Below the pieces are notes generated by a model. It saw only the letters and a program-made list of their open reading frames with translations, had not been told where the DNA came from and did no database searches. Made by a program: the position numbers and the translations under genes. From Paraspadella gotoi (taxonomy: Eukaryota; Animalia; Chaetognatha), in contig CM119270.1 in assembly GCA_051294375.1 (NCBI GenBank), positions 3,157,436 to 3,221,403 of the forward strand: a stretch of DNA of 63,968 nt. Direction: 5' to 3'. Shown in pieces: positions 1 to 54,401 of this stretch (position 1 is its first letter; the number at the start of each line of letters is the position of its first letter).

Positions 1-754
1 GTCGCTTTCTTCCATCAGAGTATCTGAACTCTCGGAAGCGCGACTGAGATTCGAAGGAGGGTTGGAATCGATGGTCGGGAGACTACGAGTGGACGAGAGG
101 CGGGAGGACGAAGTCGAATAACATCCGGGTTCGTATTCGGTGGTGGTCTCCGTGTCGGTTGATAACGAAGTGTCTTGATCCAGTGAAGTCGGCTTGGTGG
201 TGGCGTCGTCGATCGCTGGCTTTTTCGTGTCGGTCTTTAATCGCTGCAAGTTGACAAAAGCATAATTCAAAGTAATTTTAAAATTTTACAGCAGCTTTAA
301 ACGAACCTGCTTCGCAGCGTCGGCCTGTTGCGACAGCTGCACGATCATCTGCGCCAGCTGCATCGGGCTGTCGGTGGAGGCGGAGAGGATGGCTGCGGAG
401 ATGGCGCTGATGTTTGGCGGCGCGTAAGACGCGTTGGCGGGACTCGATTCTTCAAAGGAGATGGAATTGTCGGCCGTTGAGGGCGCTTCGTCGTCCATCT
501 TTGTGGACGCTGGGAGATTGTAGGTCAGGTTGTCCGAATGGCCCGTCGAGGGTCCGACGAGGTGTTCGCTTACAACCCTTGATTCTCCAAGGCCGATGCC
601 ACTTCCGTCATAGTCGTCGTGATCGAGGTCGATTGCAGAGACGCCGTAGGTGGCGTTGCCCTTCGCCGCTAATCCAACGCGGATATCCGACTGAACGCTG
701 CCATCTAAGGTACTCTGTGGGAATGAGGAGAAAAGCCTGAATTTAAGTCAAACC

Positions 755-798
<44 letters not shown>

Positions 799-3571
799 CC
801 GTCTTTCTCGTTTTTTATCTCTCACCGATAGAGTGACTTCATCCTCCTCCTCCACTTGGCTCGTGTATAGCGGGCCAGGGCCGGCCCTGTGCAAGGGCGG
901 AGAAACGATGGGCGCGCCAAAGCCCATGGTCGGTCGGTTGCAAGGGTCGCCCTCCTCGCCGAGGCTACCCAGAGGTTCGGAGCGTTTCCTCGCCCAAGCG
1001 CCGAAAGACATTTCCGAGACGAAGGAGACGTCGTCGGCCTCCACAGGCGTCTTGGCGTTGACGGAGGAAGGACGCCGCTCCGTGGGAAGCATCGACATTC
1101 GCGGGGATCTGAAGGATCTGGTGTTTCGAGGCAAAGAAATGAAAGGATCGATGATGTCATCAACGGAATTAAACTCACAGACCGACCGACAGAGGGATCT
1201 CAACATCAATCGCTCAACATCCAACTTCAAAAAACAATCCTTCGTTTGATTACTAACTATAATTGAAAAATTAAAAATTGATAATTGTCAACGCTGTCTG
1301 TCATCACCTTTATAATTGTTCCGTCAATAATCAAATTTGTCTAATGCTTGGCTTCACTTCTTAATTACCCCCTTCATTTAGTGATTAAATATTAACCAGG
1401 TTATGTCATGTGATGTCATAATTGTCATATATCTTACTTGGGCCTTCCCTCTTCCTCCTTTTCCTTCCCGTTTCCTCCATCTCCGCCGAACAAACTATCG
1501 TCCGCCAATCGATCCGTATTTTTCTCGAAGACTTCGTCGGGACGAAATCTATTCTCTTTCTCGAATTCTCTCTGTTCCTCGTCGATGCGGCGTCGCGCTC
1601 CCTCGGCGTCCATGACCTCGGCTTCGTCGAAGAGCGATTCCGAGAGCTGCTGCGGCGACGCCGTAGCGTCGAAGGGGTTGACGGCGCCGCCGCCGCCGCC
1701 GACGGAAAGGGAAAGTTCGAAGACGCCGCCACCGTCGGGAGTAGGGAAGGAGATGTCGGTGAGTTCGAAACGGGATGGAAGAGATTTCGGAAGGCCCTGC
1801 GAAATTTTAGGATTTGGATATTGATTGGTTGATTGATGATTGGATTCACTGGTTGATTGATGATTAGATTCACTGGTTGATTGATGATTTTATTCCATGA
1901 TGAATTGATGATTCAACTTCGACGATTGATTTTATTGATTGATTGATCACTATCACCTCCACGTCCACATCCAAAACGGAGGCGTTCTGCGTGTCGGTGG
2001 TCGAGTCGAGAAGCGTCAAAGGCTTCAAGTATTTAAAGGAGAGCGAGGATTCCCGGAAGGGATCTTCTTCGCCGCGCGGAACGTCGAAAGTCTTGGTGTC
2101 CGGCGCCGCGACTCGAGACGACGCCGCCGACGAAAACGGCGTCGCGGAATCGTCGGCGCCGCTTTGTGGAAGAAAGAATCTGGCGCTGATGTCTTTCGCG
2201 GCGTCGATAGGGGAAGAGGAGGAAGAGGAGGAGGACGGGGTCTGCTGCTTCGAGGGAAAAAGATGAGCGAACATCTTTTGGCGAAAGTCGCTCAGTTGGA
2301 CTTCGGCGGAGGGTGGCTGAATTGAGAAAATATTAAGGTGACAACAACTTTAACGATTCCTGAATTGACCTCAATCCGGACCTACGACTTCGGGTCAGGT
2401 GATCATCGATTAGATTCGTTTCGACTCGCATTATATTATATTATATTTTATATTATTATTTTTACGAATGCCTTATCTAATTTTAGTATTGTCGTTTTTT
2501 CTTTCTTTGGAAAAAAAATAGTTTTGATCATTACATGTTATAAAAATTAGTGAAACGACTTCCAATTTTTTTTACAAATTCCTTATCTAGTCATTCGCTA
2601 AATTGAATACCGAGTCATTTTCCTAAAAATAAAAAAAAAGAATCGCGCCAGAAGAAATCAGTTTTTAAACGAACCTGATTTTTGATTTTTTCATCGTCGT
2701 CGTCGTCGTCTTCGTCGCTCAAATCGCTGAAATCATCGTCGAGATCGTCCAAATCACCGTCGTCGAGCTGAATGTCGTGTTGACTGGCTTCCATCGCGTC
2801 CTCGCCTGAAGAAAACAATAAAATAACTACAAATAGTGACATACTAATAAACACGAAGCAATAAACCCGTCCGCTCGTACCCATCAGCAACTGGCCATCG
2901 CCCAGAACATCCGCCTGAACGCGAAAGGCAGGATTCCGCTTGCTCGGGTCCTGATTGTTGGGACAAGCGTTTTCCTTGTCGGCCTCGTTGGGAGAGAAGA
3001 GCTTGGCGGGGGCGTTGGCGATCGACTTGAGAGGTGGCGGGGGAAGCGGCGCCTTGAATTGAGATTCCGGGGTGACGGAGGCGCGGACGCTGGCTTCGCT
3101 AAGATCGAGGAGTCCGGAGCGGTAGTCTCATAAATTGAGGAGTGGGGGGGGGGGGGAAATTTAACTTAGATTTTTCACAGAATCGTCTCCTCACGAACGT
3201 CATAGACTCGGAATAAAGCAGGGAAACAATTTTCCAATAAACGAACAACGACGCCGATCCTTTGAATTTCCCTCGTGTCGAGGCTCGACAAGTCAAAAGA
3301 CAACATAAAAAAACCCTCAAAAATCCCCAAGCAATTCACCGTAATTGCTGTTGAGCGAGAGAACGGAGACTTGATCCAGATCGAGTCGTCCGCTGAAGGA
3401 TTTTAGCAGCGAAGACTCGGCGTCGGTGGAAGAACGCCCTTCGGATCCGCCGCATCCGCCGCCACCGCCACAGCCGCCATCGCGAGACGACATCGGGATC
3501 TGCCGCGGCCGCCGCTGCGTGGAGGCGGCGACAGGAAGTGGCGGCGATCGGGCCAAAGAATCGTCGGCCAT
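1..3571 (-). CDS. CEP192: Centrosomal protein CEP192/SPD-2 orthologue, 5' part (multi-exon, continues beyond position 1)
   Basis: Spliced minus-strand frame from ATG at 3571 (MADDSLARSPPLPVAASTQRR, cf. CEP192 LPVAVSTLAR PLK1-docking motif). Also an acidic D/E tract (~2680-2800), SFGAWARKRSEPLGSLG..RPTMG..IVSPP (cf. SLGQFFAQRSEALGCLG..RPSFG..IRSP) and ISAISAAILSASTDSPMQLAQMIVQLS (cf. ISTIASAIAEASVNTDPSQLAAMIKALS). GT-AG introns join the exons in frame. Confidence 0.75.
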
Positions 3572-3773: not shown

Positions 3774-6700
3774 TCAATAAGTATATCCCAGCTTAGCATT
3801 CTCGGCGGGTTTGGCCGTGCTCAACCTGAGCCGGGACATGCCCAAATTTCTCGACGCTCCCAATTCCTTGGAAGAACCCAGTTCCTTGGACAAACCCAAT
3901 TCCTTGGCCACGTCTCTCTCAAACTCGGATCCCCCGGACGACATGTTGTCCACGTCCGAGGGTTCCCACGACGTCGTCGGCGTCTCCACGTTTCTCGACG
4001 GCGCCCGACCGGAAGACGGCGCCGGCGTTCGTTGCTGGCGCGGCGTCGGAGACGACGATGGTGAAGAAGAAAATTGACGAGGAGGAAGGGATTTTTTGAG
4101 AGAAAGATTGAGAGGTGGAAGCGGCGCCACCGCGGGAAGGACGGCGTCATTTTTCGGCGTCGATTTCGATCCGGAACTTTCGTTGGAGGATTGACGCTTC
4201 ATGACGGGGGAACGCGTCGACGGCTGCGGGACGGGAATGGAGAGCGGAGTAGTACGTGGCGCCGGGGAAACTTTGCCCGGCGCCGTCGATTTAGAAGAGA
4301 TGGAATCGGCGCTCATCTCCGAGTCGACGCTTTTGTCGCCGACCTTTTCGGCGTCGTCTAAAACGCTTCCTTTGTTATCGGCGGCGGGGCGGACTTTGTT
4401 ATCGGCCGTACCGCCGTTCTCGCTGTCAGCCGCATCGTCGTGAGACGAAAAATCCATGGAATAAGAGTCGCTGACGTCGTCGTCGCTCTTACGCGTCGAA
4501 GACTTTCGTCTCGTAGCGGCGTCCTTCTCGCCGACGTCAACCTTCTCCGGCGAAATCGACGTCGGTTGAACGGAGGTTCCCGCCGTGAGGCCGGAAATCG
4601 GCAATCTCACTCCCGGCGACTTTTTAACCGTGGGATACGAAGTCCCGTCGGCGGAAGAAGCCGACGACTCTTTGGAATCTTTCTTGCTGTTTTCCCTCGA
4701 CGGAACCTTGAGGCGATCGGGCAGAGCGGGCGTCTCGAGGGCCGAACGTTTGGAAGTGGCCGACGAGACCTTGGAAGATTTGGACCGTTTGGAATCTTCG
4801 GAAATGGTTTTGGATTTAGCGATGGAAGAGGAAGAAGACGACGAAGGGGAAGATTTTGTTGATCCTCGCTCATTTTTCTTTCTTTCCATTTCTTCTTTCT
4901 TCTCTCTCGTTTTTCTTTCTTCGATTTTGGATTTTTCCATCTTCTTTCCATCGTCTTCTCTCGACGATTCTTTATTCTCTCTTCCGTCTCTTCTCTCCTT
5001 CTTTCTCGAATTCTCTTCATCTTTCAAATTTTCTTTCGAATCTCGCGACTTGAAATCCGATGATTCCGTTTTCCCTTTATCGCCGAGTCTGGCCAACACG
5101 TTGTGCTTCTTTTTTCCGGCGGGCGACGCCGATCTCGAGGACGCGGCGTCGACCGGCGTCGATTGACGCAGATTGGGAACGATGCCCGTCCACGAATCCC
5201 GAGTCGGCGACGGGGACGACGCCGTTCGAACGGCGGCGATTGGCGCCGACACCGACGCCGAAGGTTGGGGCGGAGCCTTTTCGACGAACTCGGCCTCGTC
5301 TTCCTCGATCGACGCCCTCATCGAACGACGCCGGAGAAACGACATCGAGACTCGACGCCGATCTGGCGAAGGCGAGGAGGACGACGCCACCGAGACCGAG
5401 CGTCGCGTCGGCGCCGCCCACTCTTCGTCCGAAGTCCAACCGGGTCGGCTGGGAGGCCAAACCGCGGTGTCGCTTGGGGGACGATCTTGAAAACGGTGGG
5501 CGGATAAACGGAGAGAATCCTGAAATAAATCAATCAATCACTCAAGGAATCAATTAAAATCAAGCTATCCATGTCCCGACATCCATTCATTCCAATCAAC
5601 CAATAAATTCAACTTTTTTCAACTAAATAAATGCAATCTCACTTTCGACGAGCCTGTGTAGAGAAACGGAGACTGCTTCTCCGGCAACATCTGCTCGAAG
5701 GGCGGCTCGGGCGTCACCAGCGGCTGCGATGGCATCCGGCGCAGCCGTACGTGCATGACGCCGCGTTTCTCAACGATATCGTCGGCGTCGACGGCGCCCG
5801 GGTTGTGCTTAGCCATTCGCAGCTTGTGCGTATTTGTCGAGCCAGCGGAGCGACTCGGGGCGGCGACTTTACTGCGAAAGGACGGAGTAGAACGAATGTA
5901 GCTCTTCGCTTTGGGAAGAGGCCGACCGCGAGCGCCGTCTCTGGGATCGTCGAGTTTGCTGCATTGACGCTTGAAGGATTTGGCGGCGAAATCCGATGGT
6001 GCCGCATCTTTTTTCGAAGGAGGTTCTAAGCGGCCTGATTCCGGGGTGAGCGCGACGTCCACGGCGTCCCCGGCGCCGCCGATGTCCCCGGCGTCACCGG
6101 CGCCCCTTTCTACCGGCCGCGATTCGCTTCTTTCGCCGCCTTTTCTAGATTCCGTCTGCGTGGCGGCGTCGTTGATTTCCGCGGCGACGGCTCTCGATCT
6201 CGATTTGACTCGATTCTTCATCGGATTTTGCGGACTCGTCTCCGCGTCGATGAACCGCAGCAGCTCCCGCAGAAGGGACTGCAGCACCGGGAAATTCTTG
6301 GGCTTCCGCAGCGATTCTAAGACTAATTCGGCGGGAGGAAGAGAGAGCGCATCGCGTTTCTTCTCCACGACGGCGTCGCCGCCTTCGAGGCTGCGTCGAT
6401 CGATAACGCGCCTCTCGTCCGACACCACCCGGCGAGGAGACGAGTGGAAGGCGTCGTTCTGACTGTTGTAGTAAAGCACAGGAGGGTTGACTAGATGAAG
6501 CGGCTCGTCGAAATCGACTTCGGGTCGAACGGCGGCCATCGTTATCGGAGCGAACGGGTAGGAGACAGTCGGGAGTCGGCGATCCAATTCCGTTTGCACG
6601 CCACGACACGTCGCGCGATTCGTTGAATTTCCATGGGCGAAATCGCGGCGACGATCGGACGCCAATTTGGTCGGTCGTTCCGTCGACGGCGCAGTTTGGA

Positions 6701-7987
6701 CGCCGGCGTCGCGTCGATCTTCGATCTTTTGTTTTTCTTCGATCTTTACTTTTGTTGTTTTTTTAATCGAAGACGAAACTAAGTTTTCTCCTCGTCGATC
6801 TTGATCGGATCTCGAGAGAGGATTCTCTTTCTCCCGACGAGCAGAGGATTCTCTCGAAGACCCGCGCTTCGTCTCGGCCGAGTCAATTCCCTTTTCTCCG
6901 AAGACGTCTCCGTCTTTCTCTCTCTCGTTGTTGTTGTTGACGTGTTCCAGCAACAATCGACCGGCTTTTCCGTAGAAGACGATCTTAGCGTCGAGACGAA
7001 CGACGCCGACGACGCCGCCCATTGGATCCACCACCTGGCAGTCGGCTTCGACGCCGCGCGACGCCGCCAAAGCCTCGTCGCCGGCGCCGTCGATCTCCTT
7101 CTTCAGTTCTCCCACGACGTCGTCGAGTCTGAGGATTCCGGTGCCTAGAAGCGAGCGGCGTCGGGCGTCATCGGGCAACGCCTCCTTGACGACGACGACG
7201 AGCGGCGCCGAGGAGAGGGCGTCGACGAGCGATTCCAAGTGTGATTCAAAGAGGAGGGACTTTCCGCGGGAGAAGATGTAGCGGACGGAGGCGGAAGGAT
7301 CGTCGGGATTGAGGACGTCAAACTGGGGAGAAAGACTTTACTTTTCAATAAAATTAAACATTACTGCAAATCCGAAGCAATTGACGAGAAAATACTTACA
7401 CGTCGGCGAAAGAATGAGAGAGAGAGGGGGAAAGAGAGAGAGAGAAAGAGAGAGAAAGAGAGAGAGAACTGAAAAGAACTGAAATGAAAAGAAAAAGAAC
7501 GCGAAAGACTTATTTTTGGAATGTCTGCGTTTGGTGTACTTCAAAGTCAGTCACGAACCGGCTTCCCACGCAAACAACATAACCAAACCTCGCTAACCTT
7601 TAAGAATTTTACTTCTAAAATATCTCAAGCGACCAGAAATCACACGAACACGTCGGACAGAAAATATCCCCATAACCGCTCTCCATCATTCAATTTAACC
7701 TTAACCAATGTATCCCTGACGGCTTCGTCGACGTTATGCCGGAAGAGGTCGACATCGTGAGCGAAAGCGAGGACCTCGGCGTCGACTCCGCGCCGCAGCA
7801 GCCGCAGGAGGTCATCGTCGACGCAGCAGAGGCTGATGCGAGGGAAATCGAGGACCTTGAGATCGATTTGGGGAACGAAGGTGGCGAGACAGTTGGATGT
7901 TTTGGTGAAGGAGTGGACGAAGAGTTCGAGGGAGAAGAGGGATGAGGAGGAGGAGGAGTTGGGGTTGGTCGGTCCTCCGATGGACAT
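3774..7987 (-). CDS. MAP10: Microtubule-associated protein 10 (KIAA1383)-like, about 3 exons
   Basis: N-terminal LFSLELFV, KVLDFPRI and FSRGKSLLF match MAP10 LFSLELLV/RLLDFPTL/FGRGKSCLF; also NPPVLYYN, FPVLQSLLRELL and C-terminal LGYTY. Exons ~7700-7987, ~5645-7322 and 3774-5519 join in frame. Confidence 0.75.
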
Positions 7988-9152: not shown

Positions 9153-10160
9153 CTAAAAACTCTCCTCGCTGTCCCTGAGTCGTTCTCTCGCCAAAAGGCG
9201 GAACCGCTCGACGACTTGTTCGAGCGACTTCTCCCCGTGGACTTTGTTGTCGCGCGTGCGAATGTTGACGGTTCCGTTGTCGCGTTCCTTTTCGCCCACG
9301 ACGAGGATGAAGTTGTACTGAGCCAATTGGTTGTTGCGGATCTTCTTGTTCAAGGTCGTGCCTAAGTTTTTTTTGGAGGAAGGAATGGCAAATGAGTCTC
9401 GGGGAGAGAGGGAAAGAGAAAAAGAGGGAAAGAGAGAAAGAGAGAGAGAGAAATTGAGGAGGAGGAAGAGAGAGAGAGAGAGAGAGAGATTCACCATGAT
9501 CCAAATCCGCGTCGACGACAAATCCCGCTTCCCTCAATTTATCCTTGACACTGAGAGCGTACGAGTCGAAAGGCGGCGCCACGGGTACGATCGCCGCCTG
9601 GGAGGAAAAACAAAATGGCGTCAAAATATTAACTAAAAATATTTTATTCGTTCAAATACGTTAATCCTCCCCCCCCCCCGAGTTTTCACACCAACCAAAA
9701 TAAACTCAAATTCTTATTATTGATAATAAAACGCACTGTCGGGCGAGAGCCAAAACGGCCATTTCCCGCCGGTGTGCTCTGTCAAGATGCCCAACATCCT
9801 CTCGACGGAACCGAGGATGGCGCGATGCACGATGACGGGCCGCTTTCGGACGCCCTCGCCGGACTCCAACGTCTCGCCGCTTAATCAATAAATTAATACT
9901 TAAATAAATAGATATAAATTTTATTATAGATTCATGGAAACCCACGTGTTGTAGGTTAGATTGAATCTTTCGGGAAGTTGAAAGTCCAACTGGATGGTGG
10001 CGCATTGAATGGATCGACGGAGCGCGTCCTTGATGGTGATGTCGATCTTGGGTCCGTAAAAGGCGCCGTCGCCAGGGTTGAGTTCCACTTGCGCCGGGCA
10101 TTTCGTCGAGGCATTCCGATAGCTGAGGGGGGTGGATTGAATGATTGAATGAGAGTGAGT

Positions 10161-10231
<71 letters not shown>

Positions 10232-12924
10232 GAAACCTGCTTTTTCGGCGTTGTCCCACGTTTCCACTTCGCCAAGGAACTTCTCCGGTCGAGTCGAGAG
10301 CTTAAGTTCGAAGGTAAAACCGAAAATTCCGTAAACGAAACTCATGAAGTCGAGGCAACCTCTGATTTCCGCCTGATGAGAAATACATAAGTAAATAAGT
10401 GATAAATAATGTTAAATAAAGAAGTTTTGAGAATTAATCGTTTTTTTTTTTAAGCGATTAACCCCTCTTCCCCCCGCCCTGAAAAAAGACCTTGATGTCC
10501 TCTTGCCGACAGAATATGTGGGCGTCGTCCTGCTGGAACCGGCGCACCCTTGTCAGCCCCGTCAGCGCCCCGCTGATCTCGTTGCGATGGAGAACTCCGA
10601 AATCGGCCAAGCGGAGAGGGAGCTCCCGCCAGGAGCGCGGCCGGTGATCGAACATGAGACAGTGGCCGGGACAGTTCATGGGCTTCATGGCGAAGGTCTG
10701 CTTCTCGATCTCGGTCGCGAACATGTTCTCCGAGTAGTGCTGGAGAAGTTGGAGAGTGTCGTCGATTAAAATTAGTTTTTTTAAGATTCGCAAAGAGTGA
10801 AAATGTATACCATATCATCATCGGTTTGTAATTTTTAAACTCCACCTGCCAATGTCCGGATATTTCCCACAGTTTAGTGTTATAGATATTGGGGGAGATG
10901 ACTTCTTGAAACCCTCTCTTCCAGTATTGCTCTTTGATGAAATCCACAAGACGATTGAAGATTATGGTTCCTTTGGGTTGGAAGAAACAGCTGCCTGGAC
11001 TCAGATCGTGAAAGAAGAACAACTCTTGATCCTGAAAAGGACAAAATATCCTGTTTAAGTGCGACGGCAATATCTAATGAGATTAAAGGACGCCTCTTTT
11101 ACCCTTCCAATTTTCCGGTGGTCTCTCTTTGCAGCTTCCTCCTGAAATTGTTTCCATTCTTTCATGAGTTTCGTGTCCGGAAAGGAGATGGCGTAGATGC
11201 GTTGCAAAGACTCCATGTCCGCTTTGCCTTCCCAGTACGAAGAAGAGTTTTTCGTCACCTTTAAAATATTCGTTAAGGGTGTTTACGAAAAAAAAAAATA
11301 TTTGAGAAAATAACTGACCGACTGACCTGGAACGCCTTGACTTTCCCAGTGTTACGGATGTGTGGGCCGCGGCAGAGATCGATGAGCGGACCGCAGCGGT
11401 AAACCGTGGTCGAATCGGTCTGAACCTTCTCGTTGATGATTCGCTGCTTGAAAGGGTTGTGCTTGAAGAGATCGAGCAAGTCTTTCTTAGAGAGCACGCA
11501 ACGTTCGAAAGGCTGCTTCTCCTTCAAGATTCCCTTCACCGTGTCCTCGATGGCTTTGAAGTCGTTGCTCGAGACTTGTCTGATTTAGGAAAAGTTGGAG
11601 AAGGGGGAGTCATCAACTCTCACTACCATTGATGCAGTGATTCTCAATGGAGACGTTTCTTCACCTTTCGTCCATAAACATGTCGTAATAAAAGCCACCC
11701 TCTACCGGTGGGCCGGCGCAGAGGTGGCCCCCGTATAACCTGAAGAGAAGGAAAAGACGGAAAAGGGATTTAATGGCCGCAAAATCTATTATAAGAACTA
11801 AATTTAATGCATACTTTCGCCGCTTTCTCACCGTTCCATCGCTTGGCCAAGAATGTGGGCGGAGGAATGCCAGAATACGTGGTTCCCGTCTTCCGAGTCG
11901 AACTTAAGAAGTTCCAAGGTGCAAGAGTCTTCCAGCGGTCGGTCCAGGTCCCACAAAGTTGCGCCGTTCAGTTTCGCAACGACGACGTTGTCGGCGAGAC
12001 CCTGACTGAACGGCAATGGTTTCTTGCATTAATACGTTACCTTTTTAAGACAATTTCTCACTCGCGATAAACACAACGCCCTTACCTAATTCCCTGAGCG
12101 ATTTGGTAAGGCGTGGTGCGCCAGGATTCACCCTGGACGACCTTTCCGTCGGGCAGAGTGACGGTGATCGGCGAGGGAGATTTCTTGCTCAACTCTTCCC
12201 TCTGTCGGGACATGAACTTCTCCCACATGTCGACTCGGTAGGGAAGGAATTCGGGCGGCGGATCGAGCAGCTTCACCGTCTCTTCCGTCTCCGCCTTTTT
12301 GGGCTTCTTCGCCGTCTTGTCTGGTTTCGCGGCGGAGGAATGTTTTTGCTGAAAAGAATATGAAACGAAATAATTTTATAGAATATATATATATCTGCTT
12401 AGTTTAAAATTATTTTCATTGCGATTTTTCGTGGCTGAAGAGCAAATCCTTGTAAAGTTACCCCGCTCTCGCTCANNNNNNNNNNAATAATTTTATAGAA
12501 TATATATATCTGCTTAGTTTAAATTTATTTTCATTGCGATTTTTCGTGGCTGAAGAGAAAATCCTTGTAAAGTCACCCCGCTCTCGCTCACTCAACAACA
12601 GATCGAGACAAAAGCAGCCCTAATTGCCTCCACTGCATCCCGCCCCCTTTTCCTTACCTGCAGCCTCGCGAGGCCAAACTTTTCCACGTAGACATTAACA
12701 TCGACGTCTGCCGCCGGAAATTTTTGTCTCTCGGCACCGAAGGATCGGATGTGATCGACCCATCGCCGGACGTTGGGAAAGGCCGTCTCGTCGAGGGCGA
12801 GTTTCTCGAGCGACGACGCCAACAGTCGCTCCACCAGTTGAGCGTCGACGGTCGTCGGCCGGAAGTCGGCCACGTAACTCCGGTCGGCCAAATGTTCGTT
12901 CAAAGCCGACAAATCGGCGGACAT
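9153..12924 (-). CDS. TARS1: Cytosolic threonyl-tRNA synthetase with putative N-terminal eEF1B-type GST-like domain
   Basis: TGS region ([16 protein letters not shown]), [65 protein letters not shown] and anticodon-binding [24 protein letters not shown]. Short GT-AG introns; apparent 1-nt indels at ~9740 and ~10085-10245. Confidence 0.95.
12366..12590. other. Assembly gap (10 N) flanked by near-identical ~105-bp duplicates, probably unmerged haplotype overlap
   Basis: aataattttatagaatatatat...ccccgctctcgctca occurs on both sides of the Ns with a few substitutions. Confidence 0.8.
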
Positions 12925-17663: not shown

Positions 17664-17724
<61 letters not shown>

Positions 17725-29079: not shown

Positions 29080-29139
<60 letters not shown>

Positions 29140-35804: not shown

Positions 35805-35838
<34 letters not shown>

Positions 35839-36335: not shown

Positions 36336-36393
<58 letters not shown>

Positions 36394-43447: not shown

Positions 43448-43479
<32 letters not shown>

Positions 43480-44696
43480 GCCGCCTTTGCTCCGCCTCTT
43501 GTTCTTCTTCATCTTCTTTCTCGGGGGTTTGGAGGGTTCGTTGTCGCCGCGTCCGTCGTCGTCGTCGTAGTCGTCGTCGTTGTTTCTCGTTTCCTTCGAC
43601 GACGTCTTCCTAAGGACGGAAGGATCGTCGTCGTCTTTGCGATTGCGACGCGAGGAGCCGCGTTTGGCGCTGCCGCCGCCCGAGTCCTTCGATCTCTCAC
43701 TTTCTCTATCGAAGTCTTTTCCTCCGCGGTCCGTCTTACCGCCGCTCTTCTCCCCGCCCCCGCCGCTTTTCTCTCCTCCCGTTCCTCCCTTCTCCTCCTT
43801 CGTCCTTCCCTCCTTCTCCTCCCTGCCGCCGACGGAGGTGGATGAGGAAGAGGCAGCCGCAGCCGCTCCAGTCGCGGCAGATCCCTCGCGCTTTCCTCCC
43901 TCCGTCTTTTTGTCGCGATCGCTTTTGGTCACATCCTGTTCCGAGTTTTGTTTTCGAGGCTTCAACGAGGAAGAGGACGAGGAGGCGGCGGGCCCGTCGG
44001 ATCTTTCCTTGGAGTTCTCCTTCGAAGCGCCGCCCGACGACGCCGAGTCTTTCAGCTTCGGAGTTTCGCTGCCGCGTCCGCCGCCGCCGCCGCCGCCGCC
44101 GCCGCGACCGGCGCTGACGAGGTTTTCGAACTCGAGGTCGAGCAGACGGCTGCGATTGTCGATGTGCTCCATGATGGTGGCCACCAGCTGATGGGGGGAA
44201 AGAATAATAATAATTAATTAATGAAATGACAATGCAGGAAGAGGAAGGTGGAATGGAAAGGGGGGGAAGAAAAAAGGAAGGAAAGCGATAAGACATTGAG
44301 TTTATATCTTACAACAGAAGAAATATAACCTGCAACTTTTCATCACCAATCTCTTGTCCTTTGATCAAGGATCTCTGCATGGAATTGATGGCCTTGCGCT
44401 TGGCGGCCACGTCGGAATCTTCCTCTTCGTATCGGAGCTTTGCCGACTCCACATCTCGTAGAATTTCCTAAACGATATGTCCACAAACCAATAAACTACG
44501 TACATACTAAGTTTAATTAGAATCAATTTTGAAGACATCCCTTTCACTTTCAGCTTGCCTGGTATTGAGCGTCCAGCTCGCGAATCTGCGAGATACTGCG
44601 CTGCAGGTCGTCGGGAAGTTCCTCCAAGCAATCGATGTATCTCTCTAAATATTTGGCCGAAACGACGGCTTCCAACGCCCCGTGGTTGAACATCAT
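43219..44696 (-). CDS. ING1: Inhibitor of growth protein (ING1/2-type), 3 exons
   Basis: [43 protein letters not shown] and PHD finger [52 protein letters not shown]. Confidence 0.92.
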
Positions 44697-45123: not shown

Positions 45124-48100
45124 TCAATCCTCGTCTCCATTTTGATCGAGCAAATCCCATTTGGAAGCAGGGATCGAGTTCGTCATCAGCATCGGAATTG
45201 TCTCTCGTTTTTTATCCTCGTCCATCCGAGGTCGACCACGATGATGAAGCTCCTCTCTCCTCTCCTCCCTTCCTTCTCTTCCATCTCTCCTCTCCTCCCG
45301 ACTTTCCCTTCCCTCCCTCCTCTCTTCTCTCCTCTCTTCCCGCCGATCCTCCCTTCCTTCTCTCTTTTCTTCTTTGCTTTCCTTCCTTCCCTCCCGCTTG
45401 TCCTCCTTCCTCTCTTTTCTTTCCTCCCTTTTCTCCTCGTTCTTCCTCTCTTCCCTCCTCCGCTGCCTCCTTTCTTCCCTCTCGGTCTCCGATTCTTTCT
45501 CTCCGGTCCGCCCTTCCTCCCTTCGACTCCCGCCCCCCTTCTCCCTCTTCCTCTCGCCCTTCTCCTCCTTTCTCTCTCTCTTGGACTCCCTGTCCTTCTT
45601 CTTGGGCAAAAGACAGTCGTAGCGAATGGCGCCGGTGATGGCGCCGCGATAGCTGATGAAGAGCGCCAGCCTGGGTCCTCGCTCGGCCGTGTGTCGGAGC
45701 TTGAGATAATCCGAGCAGACCATGTCGACGACGACCTTGCGGATAATGAACTGCTCCACGTTGGATCGAAGGGACTCGTCGATCTTTTCCTTCTTGATGC
45801 TGACGTCGTCGAGGAACATCTCCCGTTTGTGGGATCCATCGTGGGTGGGGGCGTCGGGGACCTCGACCTCGAAGCGAAGGACCAGACCCACTTGAGACAC
45901 GTGGCGTCGAAAGATGGTCTCCACCGCCTCGCCCGTCACACGGGAGTCGAGCATCTCCAGCGCCTGCCACTCTTTCCGCTCGCCGACGATGAAGGCGAAG
46001 TCAGTCTTAAGGCGGTTCATGAGTCGAGCCACGCGGCGCTCGAACCCCACGGGATCCTCGAGAGCGTCGGCGAGGGCGTCGTCGCCCTCTTGGTAGCGAA
46101 GGTTGACGACGTTGACACGGACATTTTCCGGATGAATCGGGAATTCGCTTTCGAGAGACGATTTCTGAGAAATGGACGAGAATAATTCATCTTTTTATAA
46201 GCGTGCTGAATAGACCTTGCCATATATGAAAAGTTTTGAAATCAAAAAACGAGTATTGTGTAAAAGGTGCCCATACATCATATGAATTTTTTGAACATTT
46301 TTTTCCAAAAAAAAATTTACAGTAAATGCTGCCAACTTTGAAAAAAATGAAAAAAAATGGTAAAAAATGGACTTTTTGCTAAATATCTATAAAAGCTTTA
46401 TTGCTAGAGGGACGAAACCCAAACTATCTTGTAGAGCAGAAAAAATTGACTATGTTACATACCTCGCTTTATAAATTAAGTTGGTTTTTTACTAAGGAAA
46501 TTTTTTTTAAAAACCTATTGTTTTGGGCAATTTTTTGAATTAAAATTAAAAATGATATTTTTAACAATGTTTGTTAAATATTTTTGTAAAAAAAATTACG
46601 GCGAATTGAATAAAGAAATAATTGCCTTTGTTTTGCTGAAAGAATTTTTTAAAAAGATTATTGTAAAAAAGTTATAATTTTTTTTAAATTTAAAAAAAAT
46701 CACTTTTCTTAATAATTATTTTTATATTAATAGGTTTGAACTAGGCCGAAGGGAAAAAGGAATGCACTTTTCTCAGAGTAAATAAAAAAAATATTAAATT
46801 CTGATTTGACAATGGGTAACTTAATATTTTGTCCACCAGGTCATTAAAGTTTTTTTAAATTTTTATCATTTTATAATGGGATTATGACTTTTAAATAAGG
46901 TAGTTTTTAAATTTTTTTTCTATATTAAAGAAAAAAGAAAAATTGACAAAAGCGATTAAATGATTAAAAATTGATAAAATGAGACAAAAAAAGTAATAAT
47001 TAATGAAAGTTAAGCAACTGAAAGAAGAGTTGCTTGCTGCTTACCATCGAGAAAAAAAGTCATCATCTAGAGTGCCAAGGAAGAAAACTAGTTATTCTAT
47101 TTTTTTCATAAATTACCTTTGTCAAGCTAGTTCTCCAGAACTGAGTTGAATTATAATTTGTGTAAATATATTGCTTAATCAAAGGTTGTAAAAGACTTGG
47201 AAAAATATATTAAGCTTGCTTGATTAATTTAAGAATAGATCCGACTTGTTGATAAATTCATCAACTATAAAAGATATGAAATGAATAAAAATCAAAGATG
47301 AATTAAAAATTATATTTCAAAACTAAATCGACTATTTACAATAGACTTAATTATTAACTATAAATCATGAATAGATAACAAAAAGATAGAATAACTAGTT
47401 TTCTTTCTTTGGCACTCTAGATGATGACTTTTTTTTTCTCGATCGGTAAGCCGCAAGCAACTCTTTCTCTCAGTTGCTGAACTTTCATTAATTTTACTCT
47501 TTTTGTCTCATTTTATCAATTTTTAATCATTTAATCGCTTTTGTCAATTTTTCTTTTTCTTTTATATAGAAAAAAAATTAAAAAAACTACCTCATTTAAA
47601 AGTCATAATCCATTATAAAATGATAAAAATTTAAAAAAACTTTAATGACCTGGTGGACAAAATATTAAAGTTACCCATTGTCGAATCAGAATTTAATATT
47701 TTTTTATTTACTCTGAGAAAAGTGCATTCCCTTTTTCCCTTTCGCCTAGTTCAAACCTATTAAATAAAAATAATTATTAAGAAGTGATTTTTTTTTAATT
47801 TAAAAAAAATTATAACTTTTTAACCGATAATCCTTTTTTAAAAATTCTTTCAGCAAAACAAAGGCAATTATTTCTTTATTCAATTCGCCATAATTTTTTT
47901 TACAAAATATTTCACAACTTTGTTAAAAATATTCATTTTAAAAGTTTTTATCAAAAATTGCCCAAAACAATAGGTTTTAAAAAAATTTTTCTTAGTAAAA
48001 ACTAACTTAATTTATAATGCGAGGTATGTAACATAGTCAATTTTTTCTGCTCTACAAGATAGTTTGGGTTTCGTCCCTCTAGCAATAATGCTTTTAAAGA

Positions 48101-51024
48101 TATTTAGCAAAAAGTCCATTTTTTACCATTTTTTTCCATTTTTATCAAAGTTGGCAGCATTTACTGTAAATTTTTTTTTGAAAAAAAATGTTCAAAAAAT
48201 TCATATGATGTACGGGCACCTTTTACACAATACTCGTTTTTTGATTTTTCAAAACTTTTCATATATGGCAAGGTCTAGTGCTGAATTTTAAAAGATTTAA
48301 TGGCAAACTGAAAATAACAGTACAAAAGTAACATGATACAAACCTGGACTAAATCTTTGTAATAATAATAAAGGGTCTCCACCAAAGGTCCGGGTTCGGA
48401 AACGAGCAAAACTTGATTATCATCTTGACGAATGACCTTGAGATATTCGTTCCGGGTCAAACGGTCGATGATTTCCTACAAAAATGGATACAAGATGAAA
48501 ATAAGATGATATTACATCGACCAGAATTAAGTAATACAATCGAGTAAAATGTAGTTTCAAAATAACTTTTTACACGGCTTCGTCTTGCCTGAAAGAAAAT
48601 AGGCCTATTGAAATTGGTCATCGACTGTTCGCAGATCTTGGAGTGAATGACGACAGACGAACGACCCACGTAACAGTAGAACTTCTGCTCCTCGATGCTG
48701 TAACGCGCGCGCCACCGAGCGTTGCATTTTCTGAAGACGGAAAGGAGGGAAGATATGTCTTACTGATTAATGATATATTAATAACGATGAACATTGAACA
48801 TTTTTAACAGTTTTCAATTAAGCCGCTCACGTGAAAACATCGGAGAGGAACATTTCGCTGTCCCTCACGGCGAACTTGTGGACGTTCTCTTTGGTCATCT
48901 TCATGATCTCCGCGAGAAGACGTTCCTCCGGTTTGGCGTTGGCGGGGTCCACCTCCAGGCCGAGTTTCTCCGGCGCCGGGTCTTCCGAGCGACTCCGCCG
49001 CCTCTTCGACGGACTCTTGTGTCGCGAACGGCGCCGGCGGTGATGATGAGAGTCGGAGGACGACGCCGAGGGATCCTCGGCGCCCGGCGGCGGATCCGCC
49101 GCGGCGGAGGCGGCGGGCTGCGGCGTTGGAGCCCCGTAAGGAAGAACACCGGGGACGGACATCGAAGGAGGAGGAACGTTGGTCGGCGGAGGGTAGGGGA
49201 AACCCGGAGGTGGGTTAGGGTATCCATGATTAGGAGCGTAAGGGTTGGGAAAGCCGGGATAGCCGGGAAAACCGGCCGGATATCCGGGATAATTGGCATA
49301 GTAGGGTTGTCCCGGATAGTACTGGCCCGGAAAACCCGGCGGCGCGGCGAAGGGAGAAGGAAGTGCAGGGTTTAGTCCCGTTCCCCCTGCGGCGGCAGCA
49401 GCGGCTGCTGCGGCTGCTGCGGCCATGCCCGCGGTCGTCGGAGTCCACGCCGCCGGCGTTGGAGTGTAAGTGTAACCTGTGGTTGGGGGGGCGGTCGACG
49501 CCGCTTGAGTCACAGGAGCTGTCGCCATTGCTGCTGCTGCTGCTGCCGCCGCCGCCGCCGATGCCGACGACGACGACACCTCTTGTTCCGGCTGCTGTTG
49601 GGATCGACGAGCTTCGTCCTCTTCCTCTTCAGTCTTGGACGGCGTAGACGGATTCTGCGAAGAGACGTCCGCCGACTGCAAGGGTTTGGCCGACGGCTCC
49701 GCCGCCTTCATCTTGATGCAAAAGTGGAGGATGTGGCCCCTCTCCTTGCAGTAGTCGCAAACGGGCATGTCCTTGTTCGGGACGCGTCGCTCTTTGCACA
49801 AGAGGTCGTAACGAAAGCTGCCATCGACGGCGGCTTCGTAGGTCTCGAACAGCGACGCCTTGTGACCGCCGCTCCGACGCTCCCTCACGTGAAGATAGTC
49901 GCAAGAACGGACGGTCTCCACCAACTCGCGGAATCCCTCCATCTCGGCTTCTTGAGGGAGCTTGCCTTCACCGACGACCATTTGGATGTCGTCGAGGAAA
50001 AGGCGGAACACGTAGACACCGGCTTCGTTGTCGTAGTCCATGTCGAGTTTATACTGAAGGAGAAAAAGACAGTGAAATTGGGAAAGACAGGACTAAGTAC
50101 AAAGGAAAAAAGGAGGGAAAATGATTGTACTGAATGAATGATTTGAAAAAAAGAATGAATCAATCAATGAAATGAGAGAAAGATGTGTTTGTAAAAGAAA
50201 AAAGAGAGAGAGAGAGAGAGCGTACTCAGCCAACCTTAAAAGAAAAAAGAGAGAGAGAGAGAGAGAGTACTCAGCCAACCTTAAAAGAAAAAAGAGAGAG
50301 AGAGAGAGAGAGAGCGTACTCAGCCAACCTTAACTGCTTCGGCGCCGACGGCCATCATAGTAATGCTCTTGTATTCCGTTGTTTTGATGGGAGAGATCTT
50401 GATGCTCAACATGACCTCGGCGACCAATCTCGTTCGGTTACAAGCAATGGTGGAGGGAGAGAGATGCTTCACAGCCGGGGCGCACAAGACCTCGAACGAC
50501 TGCAGCGGAGGGACGATAAGCACCTCCTCGTCCTCGGCTTCCGCGCCTTTTCGGCGCTGGTGCTGCGCGGACGGCGCCGCTGTCTCGTCCTCTGAGTCAT
50601 GTCGCGCTCGCTTTCGGAAATCTCGAAAATCGTCGTCGTACAAATCGGGCGAACGGGAGGCGGCGCGGCCGAGACGCTCCTCTGTTTCGTGTCCCCTTTC
50701 TGAGTCGAGGTAGCGGCGGCGATCGTCCTCCAAGGTGTGACGAAGATCGATTCGATCGTCGTAAGAGACTCGGTCGTCGCCTATGCGTTCCTCTCGGCGG
50801 TCGTAACGTTCGTCATCGTCATAAAAGTCGTCTCGCCGAGACCGCGAGTGAGACGCCGAGGAGCGTCGCTTCGCCTCGTAGGCTGCGGCGTCGTCTTCCT
50901 CGTAACGATCCCGACGATGGGAGCTTCCGCCGCCGCCGCCATCGTCGTCTCCGAGTCCAAAAATATCGTCCTCAAAATCTTCAAAGGTCTCTTCCTCAGA
51001 GGGATGGAATCGAATGTGGGCCAT
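45124..51024 (-). CDS. Uncharacterised putative RNA-binding protein: RD/RS-rich N-terminus, three divergent ~110-130 aa repeats, CCHC zinc knuckle, Pro/Tyr/Gly region, RE-rich tail
   Basis: Five exons join in frame (one junction GC-AG); CDYCKERGHILHFC knuckle; internal repeats ending in SCDYLHV / RNEYLKV / CSDYLKL. Confidence 0.7.
46211..48277. mobile_element. hAT-like foldback element (~890-bp inverted arms) inside an intron
   Basis: Termini TAGACCTTGCCATATATG...CATATATGGCAAGGTCTA with perfect 8-bp target duplication GTGCTGAA (46203-46210, 48278-48285); arms ~46211-47100 and ~47385-48277. Confidence 0.92.
50193..50332 (-). repeat. Three tandem copies of a splice-donor + (CT)n unit in intron 1 of the 45124-51024 gene
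   Basis: The minus strand reads AAG|GTTGGCTGAGTA(cg)(CT)nTTTTTTCTTTT three times. Confidence 0.85.
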
Positions 51025-51234: not shown

Positions 51235-52443
51235 TTAGCCAACCCCATGAAGGTTACCAGACACCGAGGGTTTTTCTTTCTTATCCAAAGCTGCTAAGAA
51301 TTCCAAGTTATCTCTAAAAGCTTCGGTCAACTGCGGAAATTCTGCGTTGAGCGCTTCGATTTGCTCTTCCTCGCTCGAGGCTTTCTGGATCTCGGGGGCC
51401 CCGCTGATGACGATTTTGACGTGGCCGTGCTCGTCCTGGTCCCGCTGCACGTGACAACGCACGCGCTTTCTCCGCTTAAAAACAAAGTAATGACCGTTTC
51501 GTTGACTGAAGCCGCCGATAAAGCAGGCCCGACGCGCCAGATCGGCAAAAGCCACATTCAACGCATCTTTCGTTCGCTCCTCATCGGTCAAAGGAGAAAG
51601 AGACGCGAAACGGTGAAGGGGGAACCAATGACCGTTTGCCACTGCACTCAAGGTAGGTATGCCTGTCGTCATCACGGGTTCGTTAGACAAGAAATTGACG
51701 AGCCATGGGGTCTTGTTAACGTCGTTCTGCAAAGCTCGAACGTCTCGGAGAATCAATGGAGACAGCTGTTCCCTGAAAATTATAAATATTGAAATTTAAT
51801 TTTATCAGAGAAAGAGCATTTAAATCAATACGGGTAACAGAAGGAAATACAGAAGAAAGAAAAAAAAGAGAACGCACTCTGCGGATCCATTGAGCCTTTC
51901 CAAGAACCCAGTTATGCTGTTGTTGCTGACGAACTGATAGCGCGCGTGGACGTCTTCAACGAGGTCGGAGGCGGCTGCGGTGGAGGCGGTGTTGATCTCG
52001 ATGAGGCGCATGATGGGGACGATGGACCCGACGTCGAAGTAAAAGAGGTCGTTGGGTCGACGAATTCCGCGGACAAGAATCGCCACGTGAATCCCGTCGT
52101 TCATTTGAGGCCCCGAAAGCGGGAAAGCCTTGATCAAGTGGGACTGGAAGCCCAAGGAGCGAAGAAACTCGTTCATGTATCCGTTATTGAACCCGCAGGA
52201 TCCGCCGGTCGAGTCATTCATCCCGGCCTCCAACTCGTCCATGGAGTAGTCGAGGAAAGGATTTCCCCTCTTCAGCCTCCGCGCCAAGTGAACCGTGTTG
52301 AAGGGGATGTTGAGGCGAAAAGCTCTGACGAGGTGATCGAGGAATTTGACGGGATCATTGCGGAGGAGATGTTCGGGCTCGACGAATTTGAGCTTGTCGA
52401 TGAGGAAGCGGCTCTGGGCCAGAGTCATCGACTTTAGCGCCAT
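51235..52443 (-). CDS. Arylamine N-acetyltransferase family protein, 2 exons
   Basis: IPFNTV, GGSCGFNN..LRSLGF (Cys), IHVAILV (His) and YFDVG (Asp) catalytic triad; GT-AG intron ~51773-51877. Confidence 0.82.
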
Positions 52444-52676
52444 TGTCAGTCAGATTCAGCGATTCAGCCGCCGATTAGTTCATTGTAAATTTATAATAAA
52501 TTCCTAGAAAAAAATAATATAAAATTAATATGTAATACAAAAGGCGTTTAAGTACTCGAAAAACTTTGGAAAGACGTTAGCTAATAAATCACAGTCTTTT
52601 GTAAATAATTGATAATGAAATTAGGGAGCATTTCAACTGTCATGCATAAAGAAATTGTGGTGAAGTTTTCGTTAAG

Positions 52677-54401
52677 TTACCAAGACTGAGCGGGCAGCAT
52701 TGGGTCGGTGATGAGAACAAGCTCGTCCTTACCACTTTCCATGAAGGCCCAAAAATAAGCCTTACTCTTACAGATGCCCTCTTTCTCGAGAATGGATCTC
52801 ACGTCCTCGGCATCCAAGGCTTGAGGATCCAAAAAACATTCCAAGCTGCGACTTTTGTTGTAGACGTAAAACTTTTCCGTCGGTGAAATTTTCGGCTCCG
52901 AAAGAAGGAGGCAACCGTTTTCGTCGCGCTTCTCCGTTTCATCCAGAGTGACCTTCGCTTGAATCTTGAGCACGAGGTTTCCTTCGGAGGCCGTCTCGGC
53001 GCAATGGGCGTCGTAAAGCCGCTTCATCATAATTTGGACCTCTTCTTTCTCTTCCTTCTTTCCTCCTCTGTCTCTACGACCCTTTTCTTTCGGAAAGCAA
53101 TGTTGCTTCATGAGCTTGGCCCGCAGATCGGGAATACAGAGGGTATAATTTTTATCTTGCACAATTTTAAGCCTCTTATGACTCTGGCGATAATATTTGC
53201 AGGTCTTCTTGTGATTCTTCCAATCTGCCTTTTGGCACTCTGCCCCGCAGTAATGCGAGACGCGACATCCGGAGCACCTGTTGAGTCCTTTGGTGACGCG
53301 ACACTTGGCGCAGGCGGCGCGCGGCTTCTCCGCGCAGAGGTGCTTGTGAAATACGGCTATAATCTCACGGAAGTTTTCGGCCAGGGAATAAGGGGTGCAC
53401 CCGTCGTTGTCCTTTACATTGGGATCTGCCCCGTGGGACAGCAAGACGTCTACCATCTCGACAGACTGGAACATGACGGCGTCGTGGAGAGCGACGGTAC
53501 CGTAAACGGATCTTAAGTCGGGGTCAGCGCCCTTCTTGAGAAGATAATCCGCCAGTTCCGGCTGAGGGGAGTGAGCGCCCGCGTACATGAGCGCAGTGTA
53601 GCCGGATTTGTCGCGGGCGTCGAGTCTGACTCCGTTGTCAAAGAGGAAATCGATAACACCTTTGTAGCGCTCGATCGTCTCCTCGGTCGTGCAGGTGGTG
53701 GTGACAGGCTTCAAACGTTGGATCCCGTGAATAGTCCAATGGACGATGGGGTTTTTGATTCGCCCGAATCTGTGGCTTTTCATATCGGGTTGCCAAATCT
53801 TTTTCAGTCCCTCCAGATCTCCAATCATCACCAGTTGAGCGAAATCAGGGAGAGAGAAAATATGGAGTTCGAGCCCGGCACGGTTCTGCTGATCCCTGGT
53901 GGTTCTGTCGCTGCCATCTAATCCCCTGACTGAGGGCCACACCTTATCCTCGCTACGAATCTCCCTCAATTTGGAAGGGAGAACTTCGTGATTGGGAATC
54001 ATCTTCAGGCCCAAAAGGACCGCCACCTCCGCTCTTCCGTACTGACCCAAACTATGTTCGGCCGAAAACAAACGCAAATATGCATCAGCGCAGATAGGAT
54101 TTAAAAGAATAGCGCGTCTCGCGTCATCGCGAGCCAGAACATAACAACCCTTTTCGCGGTGAACTGCAGAGCGACGGACGAGCGCGAGAATCAACGCGGC
54201 CGACGGCTCCGTCGCCGTCTCCACGACTTCCGTCAGGATCTTTAGCGCTCTGTCCAAATCGCAATTCTCGGCCGCGAGAGATGCCTCGCGGATCCTACGG
54301 TCGCTGGATGCGTCGACTTGAAGAGACGACGGGTAAGTGTACTTCTTTTGAATCGTCCTCACCCGGTCGAAGGTAAAGGATTCCACATCCGGGAATTCCA
54401 T
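52677..54401 (-). CDS. TPR + ankyrin repeat + MYND zinc-finger protein, single exon
   Basis: TPR-like (RRSAVHREKGCYVLARDDARRAILLNP), ankyrins (DKSGYTALMYA, GTVALHDAV, GADPNVKDNDGCTP) and MYND CAKC..CSGCRVSHYCGAECQKADWKNHKKTC. Confidence 0.88.
   Translation of the reverse strand: MEFPDVESFTFDRVRTIQKKYTYPSSLQVDASSDRRIREASLAAENCDLDRALKILTEVVETATEPSAALILALVRRSAVHREKGCYVLARDDARRAILLNPICADAYLRLFSAEHSLGQYGRAEVAVLLGLKMIPNHEVLPSKLREIRSEDKVWPSVRGLDGSDRTTRDQQNRAGLELHIFSLPDFAQLVMIGDLEGLKKIWQPDMKSHRFGRIKNPIVHWTIHGIQRLKPVTTTCTTEETIERYKGVIDFLFDNGVRLDARDKSGYTALMYAGAHSPQPELADYLLKKGADPDLRSVYGTVALHDAVMFQSVEMVDVLLSHGADPNVKDNDGCTPYSLAENFREIIAVFHKHLCAEKPRAACAKCRVTKGLNRCSGCRVSHYCGAECQKADWKNHKKTCKYYRQSHKRLKIVQDKNYTLCIPDLRAKLMKQHCFPKEKGRRDRGGKKEEKEEVQIMMKRLYDAHCAETASEGNLVLKIQAKVTLDETEKRDENGCLLLSEPKISPTEKFYVYNKSRSLECFLDPQALDAEDVRSILEKEGICKSKAYFWAFMESGKDELVLITDPMLPAQSW

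What the first reader, a model, noticed from the sequence alone, without database searches (positions are those of the whole stretch)
1..54401. Sixteen unrelated genes in one unbroken minus-strand array with operon-like spacing: candidate giant polycistronic/trans-spliced cluster in an animal
Seen: every recognisable gene is on the minus strand (chance about 0.5^15, roughly 3e-5 if orientations were independent), and orphan exons at 55.2 and 61.1 kb are also minus. Stop-to-next-ATG gaps are about 163 (EXOSC8>UNC45), 180 (XKR>BTB), 202 (MAP10>CEP192), 210 (NAT>repeat gene), 233 (ANK-MYND>NAT and BTB>ZnT6), 354, 427 and 490 nt. That is little room for 3'UTR plus promoter plus 5'UTR. The genes are not paralogues, so tandem duplication does not explain it. 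Known: SL trans-splicing operons in nematodes, tunicates and flatworms usually hold a few genes, whereas long directional clusters are typical of kinetoplastids. Inference: one or a few very long polycistronic units resolved by trans-splicing, or genome-wide directional gene clusters.
Basis: partly seen in the sequence, partly recalled or inferred. Interest (0 to 1): 0.85.

Follow-up and report, generated by a model that had tools for sequence, protein, structure and literature searches.

The report
Sixteen-gene arrow-worm operon run
Sixteen unrelated genes lie head to tail on one DNA strand in what is likely an arrow-worm genome, and spliced RNA assemblies run across two of the gene junctions, so most of these genes are likely made as a few shared transcripts cut apart by leader trans-splicing, a mechanism already known in arrow worms.

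Summary
The array is real: 16 genes, all on the minus strand; none of 150 plus-strand ORFs has a Pfam hit. The animal is very likely a chaetognath: a spliced UNC45 transcript from a relative (L001, 85% amino-acid identity; named animals 41% or less) begins with the last 17 nt of the published chaetognath spliced leader. In a matching RNA assembly one spliced contig runs XKR>BTB>ZnT, and ZnT's poly(A) site sits on SPPL's likely splice acceptor, as in the published Spadella operon. Best reading: two to five leader-resolved operons in tandem, with a probable break before SLC6, not one 54-kb unit. Chaetognath operons are known (18% of genes, up to nine genes). Open novelty: a ten-gene or longer unit (EXOSC8 onward), or genome-wide one-strand clusters; a published Spadella BAC table also lists 14 of 14 named cellular genes on one strand. 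The scan earlier noted a nine-gene run on another piece of this genome.

The parts
52677..54401 (-). Gene 1: ankyrin + MYND-finger protein (first gene of the run)
   Evidence: Pfam Ank, zf-MYND; ATG/stop checked
51235..52443 (-). Gene 2: arylamine N-acetyltransferase-like
   Evidence: Pfam Acetyltransf_2 E 0.0026, below cut-off; Atlas 0.94
45124..51024 (-). Gene 3: protein with a repeated unnamed domain and a zinc knuckle-like motif; large intron holds a foldback element
   Evidence: 19 unnamed homologues; P0261 spans exons 1 and 2, internal exons score as coding; joining across 48,830-48,731 is inferred from a GTGAG donor
43219..44696 (-). Gene 4: ING family
   Evidence: Pfam PHD, ING
39439..42729 (-). 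Gene 5: C2H2 zinc-finger protein
   Evidence: Pfam zf-C2H2
36537..38961 (.). Foldback (long inverted-repeat) element in the ZnF>SLC6 gap; the gap is still 2,137 nt without it
36100..36480 (-). Candidate non-coding first exon of SLC6 ending at a GTAAGT donor (36,105), next to a GA repeat: possible separate promoter (inferred, no RNA)
   Evidence: sequence; only strong donor in this gap
32891..34876 (-). Gene 6: SLC6 GABA/taurine/creatine-type transporter, coding region without introns
   Evidence: Pfam SNF E 8e-223
28851..30587 (-). Gene 7: EXOSC8-like exosome subunit
   Evidence: Pfam RNase_PH
25411..28687 (-). Gene 8: UNC45; its orthologue transcript L001 carries the chaetognath spliced leader
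23405..24520 (-). Gene 9: UTP23
   Evidence: Pfam Fcf1, UTP23_sensor
22032..23365 (.). 1,334-nt insertion with terminal inverted repeats and TA flanks in the UTP23>XKR gap; the gap would be 274 nt without it
20335..21794 (-). Gene 10: XK-related protein
   Evidence: Pfam XK-related; intron joint in RNA
20155..20334 (-). XKR>BTB junction (180 nt), bridged by one spliced RNA contig
   Evidence: record 4 (20,097-21,214 unbroken)
19085..20154 (-). Gene 11: BTB-domain protein
   Evidence: Pfam BTB; intron joint
18852..19084 (-). BTB>ZnT junction (233 nt), bridged by the same contig
   Evidence: record 4 (18,571-19,935 unbroken)
16943..18851 (-). Gene 12: cation-efflux (ZnT) transporter
   Evidence: Pfam Cation_efflux; intron joints and poly(A)
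16669..16673 (-). ZnT poly(A) site (16,670) coinciding with the TTAAG at which the SPPL contig begins; likely trans-splice acceptor of SPPL
   Evidence: poly(A) loose end shown; SPPL contig end 16,673 inferred two ways
13737..16588 (-). Gene 13: signal peptide peptidase-like protease
   Evidence: Pfam Peptidase_A22B; 4 intron joints
13031..13035 (-). TTAAG at the 5' end of the TARS contig (4 unlaid letters before it, 1 other letter in the piece): likely trans-splice acceptor
   Evidence: record 1; fit to leader tail inferred
9153..12924 (-). Gene 14: threonyl-tRNA synthetase with an N-terminal GST-like domain
   Evidence: Pfam tRNA-synt_2b, tRNA_SAD, HGTP_anticodon, TGS, GST_C
3774..7987 (-). 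Gene 15: MAP10-like
   Evidence: Pfam MAP10_N
1..3571 (-). Gene 16: multi-exon gene running off the window ('CEP192' label unconfirmed)
   Evidence: codon model, 8 of 8 exons; no family or homologue found

Best explanation
The window likely comes from a chaetognath, and its sixteen same-strand genes likely form two to five tandem operons, each probably transcribed from one promoter and cut into single mRNAs by polyadenylation of the upstream gene and spliced-leader trans-splicing onto the downstream gene. Probable blocks: ANK-MYND to ZnF (5 genes, gaps 210-489 nt); SLC6, probably with its own promoter; EXOSC8-UNC45(-UTP23); XKR-BTB-ZnT-SPPL(-TARS); MAP10-gene 16. Shown: gene content and strand, gap lengths, spliced RNA contigs across two junctions, a poly(A) end on the next gene's AG, and a chaetognath leader on a relative's UNC45 mRNA. 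Inferred: the leader on this species' own mRNAs, the polycistronic precursors, and where the promoters lie.
For: (1) Taxon: L001, a spliced UNC45 transcript 85% identical to the window's protein, starts with the last 17 nt of chaetognath SL2.0 from Table 3 of PMC2481426; those letters are absent from the window. Named animals are 41% identical or less; window, P0001, P0002 and L001 form one clade (support 1.0) on a long stem among 26 named animals. UNC45 is the downstream gene of a 163-nt junction here. (2) RNA: run X1 gives 9 minus-strand GT-AG joints, and depth in four intron-containing bins equals the value for empty introns, so it is spliced RNA with no assembled DNA; its record 4 runs unbroken through the XKR>BTB and BTB>ZnT gaps. 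(3) ZnT's poly(A) end (16,670) lies on the AG at 16,670-16,669 where the SPPL contig begins, like the 3-nt RPS14-PCNA junction of Spadella and Ciona's spacer-less operons. (4) The TARS and SPPL contigs carry 9 and 5 letters ahead of a TTAAG acceptor; published leader forms share exactly 9 (SL2/3/4) and 5 (SL1) 3' letters, where an assembly graph would branch (inferred, the letters were not shown). (5) Mostly housekeeping genes, with the one neurotransmitter-type transporter set off by the two largest gaps, as reported for Paraspadella operons.
Against: No leader sequence was displayed on any X1 contig (6 X1 loose ends shown; 64 rows of that table were cut). A contig across two genes shows no single transcript: overlapping UTRs can be merged in assembly (tool's caution). 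RNA was laid on 10 of 54 kb and touches only 5 of 15 junctions; the first block (genes 1-5) has no RNA support. Six of 15 gaps exceed 800 nt. An acceptor-motif scan did not tell sense from antisense or shuffles (13 vs 10 of 16; shuffle mean 12.7). The leader evidence is from a relative, in one contig.
Confidence: 0.7

Rival explanations
1. The run is part of a genome-wide pattern: chaetognath genes lie in long one-strand clusters of tens to over 100 kb, whatever the number of promoters inside (compatible with the best explanation, and wider).
For: 16 of 16 here; Table S5 of PMC2481426 lists 14 of 14 rows named as cellular genes on one strand over about 120 kb of a Spadella BAC, the 4 minus rows being in transposon-labelled groups; one large gap here shrinks to 274 nt without its insertion.
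Against: Both regions were picked for this pattern; the BAC table lists only predictions with a SwissProt match; about 2 runs of 16 per genome are expected from the published operon rate alone; Paraspadella has only 18% of genes in operons.
Confidence: 0.2
2. A compact region of separately promoted genes, many trans-spliced as single genes; the bridging contig reflects overlapping 3' and 5' ends.
For: About half of Paraspadella genes are trans-spliced but only 18% are operonic; 9 of 15 gaps exceed 250 nt; contigs cannot prove co-transcription.
Against: A poly(A) site on the next gene's acceptor leaves no room for a promoter between the mature ends (argument of PMC2481426 and PMC1488885); gaps of 163-233 nt must hold both UTRs.
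Confidence: 0.13
3. All sixteen genes form one polycistronic unit of 54 kb or more from a single promoter upstream of 54.4 kb.
For: No strand switch and no plus-strand gene in the window; mobile insertions account for parts of two large gaps.
Against: ZnF>SLC6 stays 2.1 kb without its insertion and holds a strong donor suggesting a separate first exon; SLC6>EXOSC8 is 2.3 kb; the longest published chaetognath operon has nine genes.
Confidence: 0.07

Closest known systems
Chaetognath SL-resolved operons: Spadella cephaloptera RPS14-PCNA (PMC2481426) and Paraspadella gotoi operons (PMC12460157)
   Same: Same leader family on a close relative's UNC45 mRNA; co-oriented unrelated housekeeping genes; poly(A) site within a few bases of the next acceptor; CpG not depleted in gene bodies, in line with the reported loss of gene-body methylation.
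   Different: The same-strand run (16 genes, open at the window edge) is longer than the longest reported operon (nine genes, rule of under 250 bp). Whether these genes are linked in Paraspadella is unknown: its operon table (xlsx) could not be read.
Ciona intestinalis operons without intercistronic DNA (PMC1488885; up to seven genes in PMC7986045) and the minor SL1-type operons of C. elegans
   Same: Upstream poly(A) end and downstream acceptor coincide, as at ZnT>SPPL.
   Different: Other phylum and other leader; other junctions here appear to keep spacers.
Oikopleura dioica operons (nine-gene operon; 500-bp rule, PMC11067885)
   Same: Head-to-tail housekeeping genes resolved by one leader type.
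   Different: Unrelated leader; by the 500-bp rule this run splits into blocks of 5, 1, 2, 1, 4, 1 and 2 genes.
Kinetoplastid directional gene clusters (from established knowledge; search listing only)
   Same: Long run of unrelated genes on one strand with leader trans-splicing.
   Different: Those hold tens to hundreds of almost intron-free genes genome-wide; here genes are intron-rich, and only one window could be seen.

Membership tests
Chaetognath SL-resolved operon | Organism is a chaetognath | tested here: met
   85%-identical UNC45 orthologue mRNA bears 17 nt of chaetognath SL2.0; own clade apart from all named animals. No named chaetognath protein was in the databases, so the call rests on the leader; species not determined.
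Chaetognath SL-resolved operon | Co-oriented genes under 250 bp apart (Paraspadella rule) | tested here: met
   6 of 15 stop-to-ATG gaps are under 250 nt; ZnT>SPPL is about 0 nt between RNA ends. Not met for the run as a whole.
Chaetognath SL-resolved operon | Downstream genes receive the spliced leader | tested here: inconclusive
   Seen on a relative's UNC45; in this species only inferred from contig-end arithmetic at TARS and SPPL.
Chaetognath SL-resolved operon | Upstream poly(A) site next to downstream acceptor | tested here: met
   Poly(A) loose end at 16,670 on the AG at 16,670-16,669; one contig, one junction.
Chaetognath SL-resolved operon | Polycistronic precursor from one promoter | tested here: inconclusive
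   One spliced contig bridges two gaps, but contigs cannot show single molecules; promoters cannot be mapped with these tools.
Kinetoplastid-type directional gene cluster | Genome-wide one-strand clusters of tens to hundreds of genes | not testable with these tools
   No genome held.
Kinetoplastid-type directional gene cluster | Nearly intron-free genes | tested here: not met
   9 introns shown by RNA in 10 kb; TARS has 13 exons by sequence.
Nematode SL2-type operon | Operon-specific second leader class | not testable with these tools
   No raw reads; both chaetognath papers report no position-specific leader.
Tandem paralogue array | Neighbouring genes are homologous | tested here: not met
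   Distinct Pfam families; self-BLASTN finds only non-coding repeats.

The most novel reading that the evidence does not exclude
Chaetognath genomes are organised into long one-strand gene clusters well beyond the published nine-gene operons: here EXOSC8 to gene 16 would be one leader-resolved unit of ten or more genes and over 30 kb (its UTP23>XKR gap widened only by a recent insertion), inside a 16-gene run like the overlooked 14-gene run on the 2008 Spadella BAC, making arrow worms the closest animal parallel to trypanosome directional clusters.
Probability: 0.22. Interest if true: 0.65.

Novelty: new member of a known kind. Interest (0 to 1): 0.35.

Why it matters
As it stands it adds an unusually long operon-rich run, with one spacer-less junction, from another chaetognath genome to a system already described in two species. 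It matters more if the run length is typical: published operon counts rest on a 250-bp rule and the Paraspadella main text never mentions strand or orientation, so longer co-transcribed or strand-uniform domains could have been missed, and this is testable from existing genomes.

Tried and rejected
No whole genome is held, so no genome-wide run-length test. No RNA holder was listed on record; X1 was then judged RNA from its splice joints. RNA could be laid on one 10-kb stretch only, which leaves 10 of 15 junctions without RNA. In that stretch 13,036-13,245 (between the SPPL and TARS contigs) has no cover: no evidence either way. By length arithmetic the TARS contig would end near 8,577, about 570 nt before the TTAAG ahead of MAP10, and record 4 would run 487 letters past the laid stretch: neither could be placed. 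X2 and X3 gave only short diverged pieces (6 and 3 records) and were not used. Acceptor-motif scan: uninformative. TTAAG lies within 110 nt of the ATG in only 4 of 15 gaps, so it is no general signal. Rfam found no leader RNA, snoRNA or tRNA family; one weak Twister-P5 match (E 0.35, below gathering score). The metagenome scan gave 1 locus from 36 pattern matches, so no second leader-bearing gene. Gene 16 could not be named. The first tree run timed out; a FastTree run on 30 rows replaced it, leaving out the other UNC45 hits. Orphan exons at 55.2 and 61.1 kb, hidden plus-strand genes (35 of 379 GC-rich windows favoured plus: 33 inside or at the edge of minus-strand exons, 2 in a microsatellite near 61.9 kb) and tandem duplication were rejected. 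Searches for a paper on longer chaetognath operons or one-strand clusters in animals found none; most subscription papers are not in the library.

Full report
Observation. The window holds 16 protein-coding genes between 54,401 and its first base, all on the minus strand. None of the 150 longest plus-strand ORFs hits Pfam, and a leave-one-gene-out codon model prefers the minus frame for 17 of 17 exons. The 15 stop-to-ATG gaps are 233, 210, 427, 489, 4,562, 2,303, 163, 890, 1,610, 180, 233, 354, 812, 1,165 and 202 nt. The two 'orphan exons' upstream are unsupported. The quoted chance of 3e-5 becomes 0.3 runs per 21,000-gene genome, or about 1.9 with the published chaetognath operon rate, so the run alone is not extraordinary for a genome scan; the tight junctions carry the signal.

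What animal. UNC45 exon 1 has two unnamed relatives at 85% identity and all named animals at 41% or less; members of these clusters come from Logan, JGI and ENA and carry no names. A scan of metagenome contigs returned one spliced transcript, L001, 85% identical to the window's protein and 77-79% in DNA. Its first 17 letters equal the last 17 of chaetognath leader SL2.0 in Table 3 of PMC2481426, and are absent from the window. Window, P0001, P0002 and L001 form one long-stemmed clade among 26 named animals. I infer a chaetognath; no named chaetognath protein was available, and the species is not determined. [quoted passage not shown]

RNA. One run, X1, holds the sequence (its kind is not on record). 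Laid on 12,001-21,950 it shows 9 joints with minus-strand GT-AG ends (13 joints listed; the other 4 are from diverged runs), and depth in intron-containing bins equals the value for empty introns: spliced RNA. Record 4 runs without a break over 20,097-21,214 and 18,571-19,935, that is across the XKR>BTB and BTB>ZnT gaps. Record 3 ends ZnT with a poly(A) tail at 16,670. The SPPL contig begins at 16,673 by two independent calculations, on a TTAAG whose AG is 16,670-16,669, so the upstream poly(A) site and the likely downstream acceptor coincide. The TARS contig begins on another TTAAG (13,035) after four unlaid letters and with one other letter in the piece. Nine and five letters ahead of the AG equal the 3' ends shared among the published leader forms, which is where an assembly graph would branch; this is inference, since the letters were not displayed and no leader appears among the 6 X1 loose ends shown (64 rows cut). 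The SPPL contig reaches 13,246, 210 nt from the TARS contig. Contigs cannot prove single molecules or true ends.

How it likely works. Polymerase started at an upstream promoter would read through several genes; each upstream mRNA is cleaved and polyadenylated and each downstream one gets its capped 5' end from the leader RNA. At ZnT>SPPL the two events use the same few bases, as in Spadella RPS14-PCNA (3 nt) and Ciona, where the authors suggest a given precursor may yield only one of the two mRNAs. The run is unlikely to be one unit: ZnF>SLC6 remains 2.1 kb after removing a foldback element and holds a strong donor at 36,105 next to a GA repeat, suggesting a separate first exon, and SLC6>EXOSC8 is 2.3 kb. 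A neurotransmitter-type transporter outside the operons fits the functional bias reported for Paraspadella. By contrast UTP23>XKR would be 274 nt without a 1,334-nt insertion, so EXOSC8 through gene 16 could be one unit of ten or more genes; UNC45>UTP23, SPPL>TARS and TARS>MAP10 are unresolved. A motif scan for acceptors was uninformative.

Comparison with what is known. PMC2481426 (passages, section 12 and supplementary file 2 read) established leaders and an operon in chaetognaths and noted further closely clustered co-oriented genes on its BAC; in its Table S5, of 24 rows 19 are plus, 4 minus (all in transposon-labelled groups) and 1 unmarked, and the 14 rows named as cellular genes are all plus (I left out a tyrosine recombinase and the transposon groups; the table lists only predictions with a SwissProt match and the BAC was chosen for such clusters). 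PMC12460157 (passages and section 10) gives about half of genes trans-spliced, 18% in operons, the longest with nine genes; its operon table could not be read and may contain orthologues of this cluster. PMC7986045, PMC11067885 and PMC1488885 were read as passages. Kinetoplastid clusters are from established knowledge. Seven literature searches found no report of longer chaetognath operons or one-strand clusters in animals. An earlier scan note on another piece of this genome reached the same phylum and a nine-gene run; I saw it after my own test and do not count it as support.

Verdict. A real, long, operon-rich run in a chaetognath: a new member of a known system (interest 0.35).

Noticed in passing
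window 12,595-12,924 (minus): Threonyl-tRNA synthetase begins with a GST-like domain (Pfam GST_C, Arc1p_N_like), joined to the synthetase exons in the RNA contig (joint 12,348-12,658).
   Followed up: partly
window 46,211-48,277 and 36,537-38,961: Two unrelated foldback elements of 2.1 and 2.4 kb (arms 93% and 90% alike), one in an intron, one between genes.
   Followed up: partly
window 22,884-23,123 and 57,506-57,745: A 240-nt repeat, 93% alike, in opposite orientations; one copy lies inside the 22.0-23.4 kb insertion.
   Followed up: no
window 23,875-24,007; 29,529-29,694; 41,464-41,620; 63,299-63,457; 20,227-20,260: Dispersed 70-165-nt repeat family in introns and gaps; one copy has a weak Twister-P5 ribozyme match (63,367-63,409, E 0.35, below threshold), possibly chance.
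   Followed up: no
window 45,124-51,024 (minus): Gene 3 carries a domain that recurs twice in the protein and in 19 unnamed proteins, with no Pfam family in it or in four of its homologues.
   Followed up: partly
window 10,237 and 9,737 (minus), 12,369-12,590: Two TARS exon ends look out of frame by one base beside simple repeats, and a 107-nt duplication flanks the N gap: likely assembly errors, not checked against reads.
   Followed up: no
window 50,192-50,333: A 45-nt unit containing the splice donor of gene 3 exon 1 is repeated three times in tandem.
   Followed up: no
window 32,891-34,876 (minus): The SLC6 coding region (661 codons) has no intron, unlike its intron-rich neighbours.
   Followed up: no
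L001:2858-3275: The relative's UNC45 mRNA has a 3' UTR of at least 418 nt, which would take up about half of the 890-nt UNC45>UTP23 gap if similar here.
   Followed up: no
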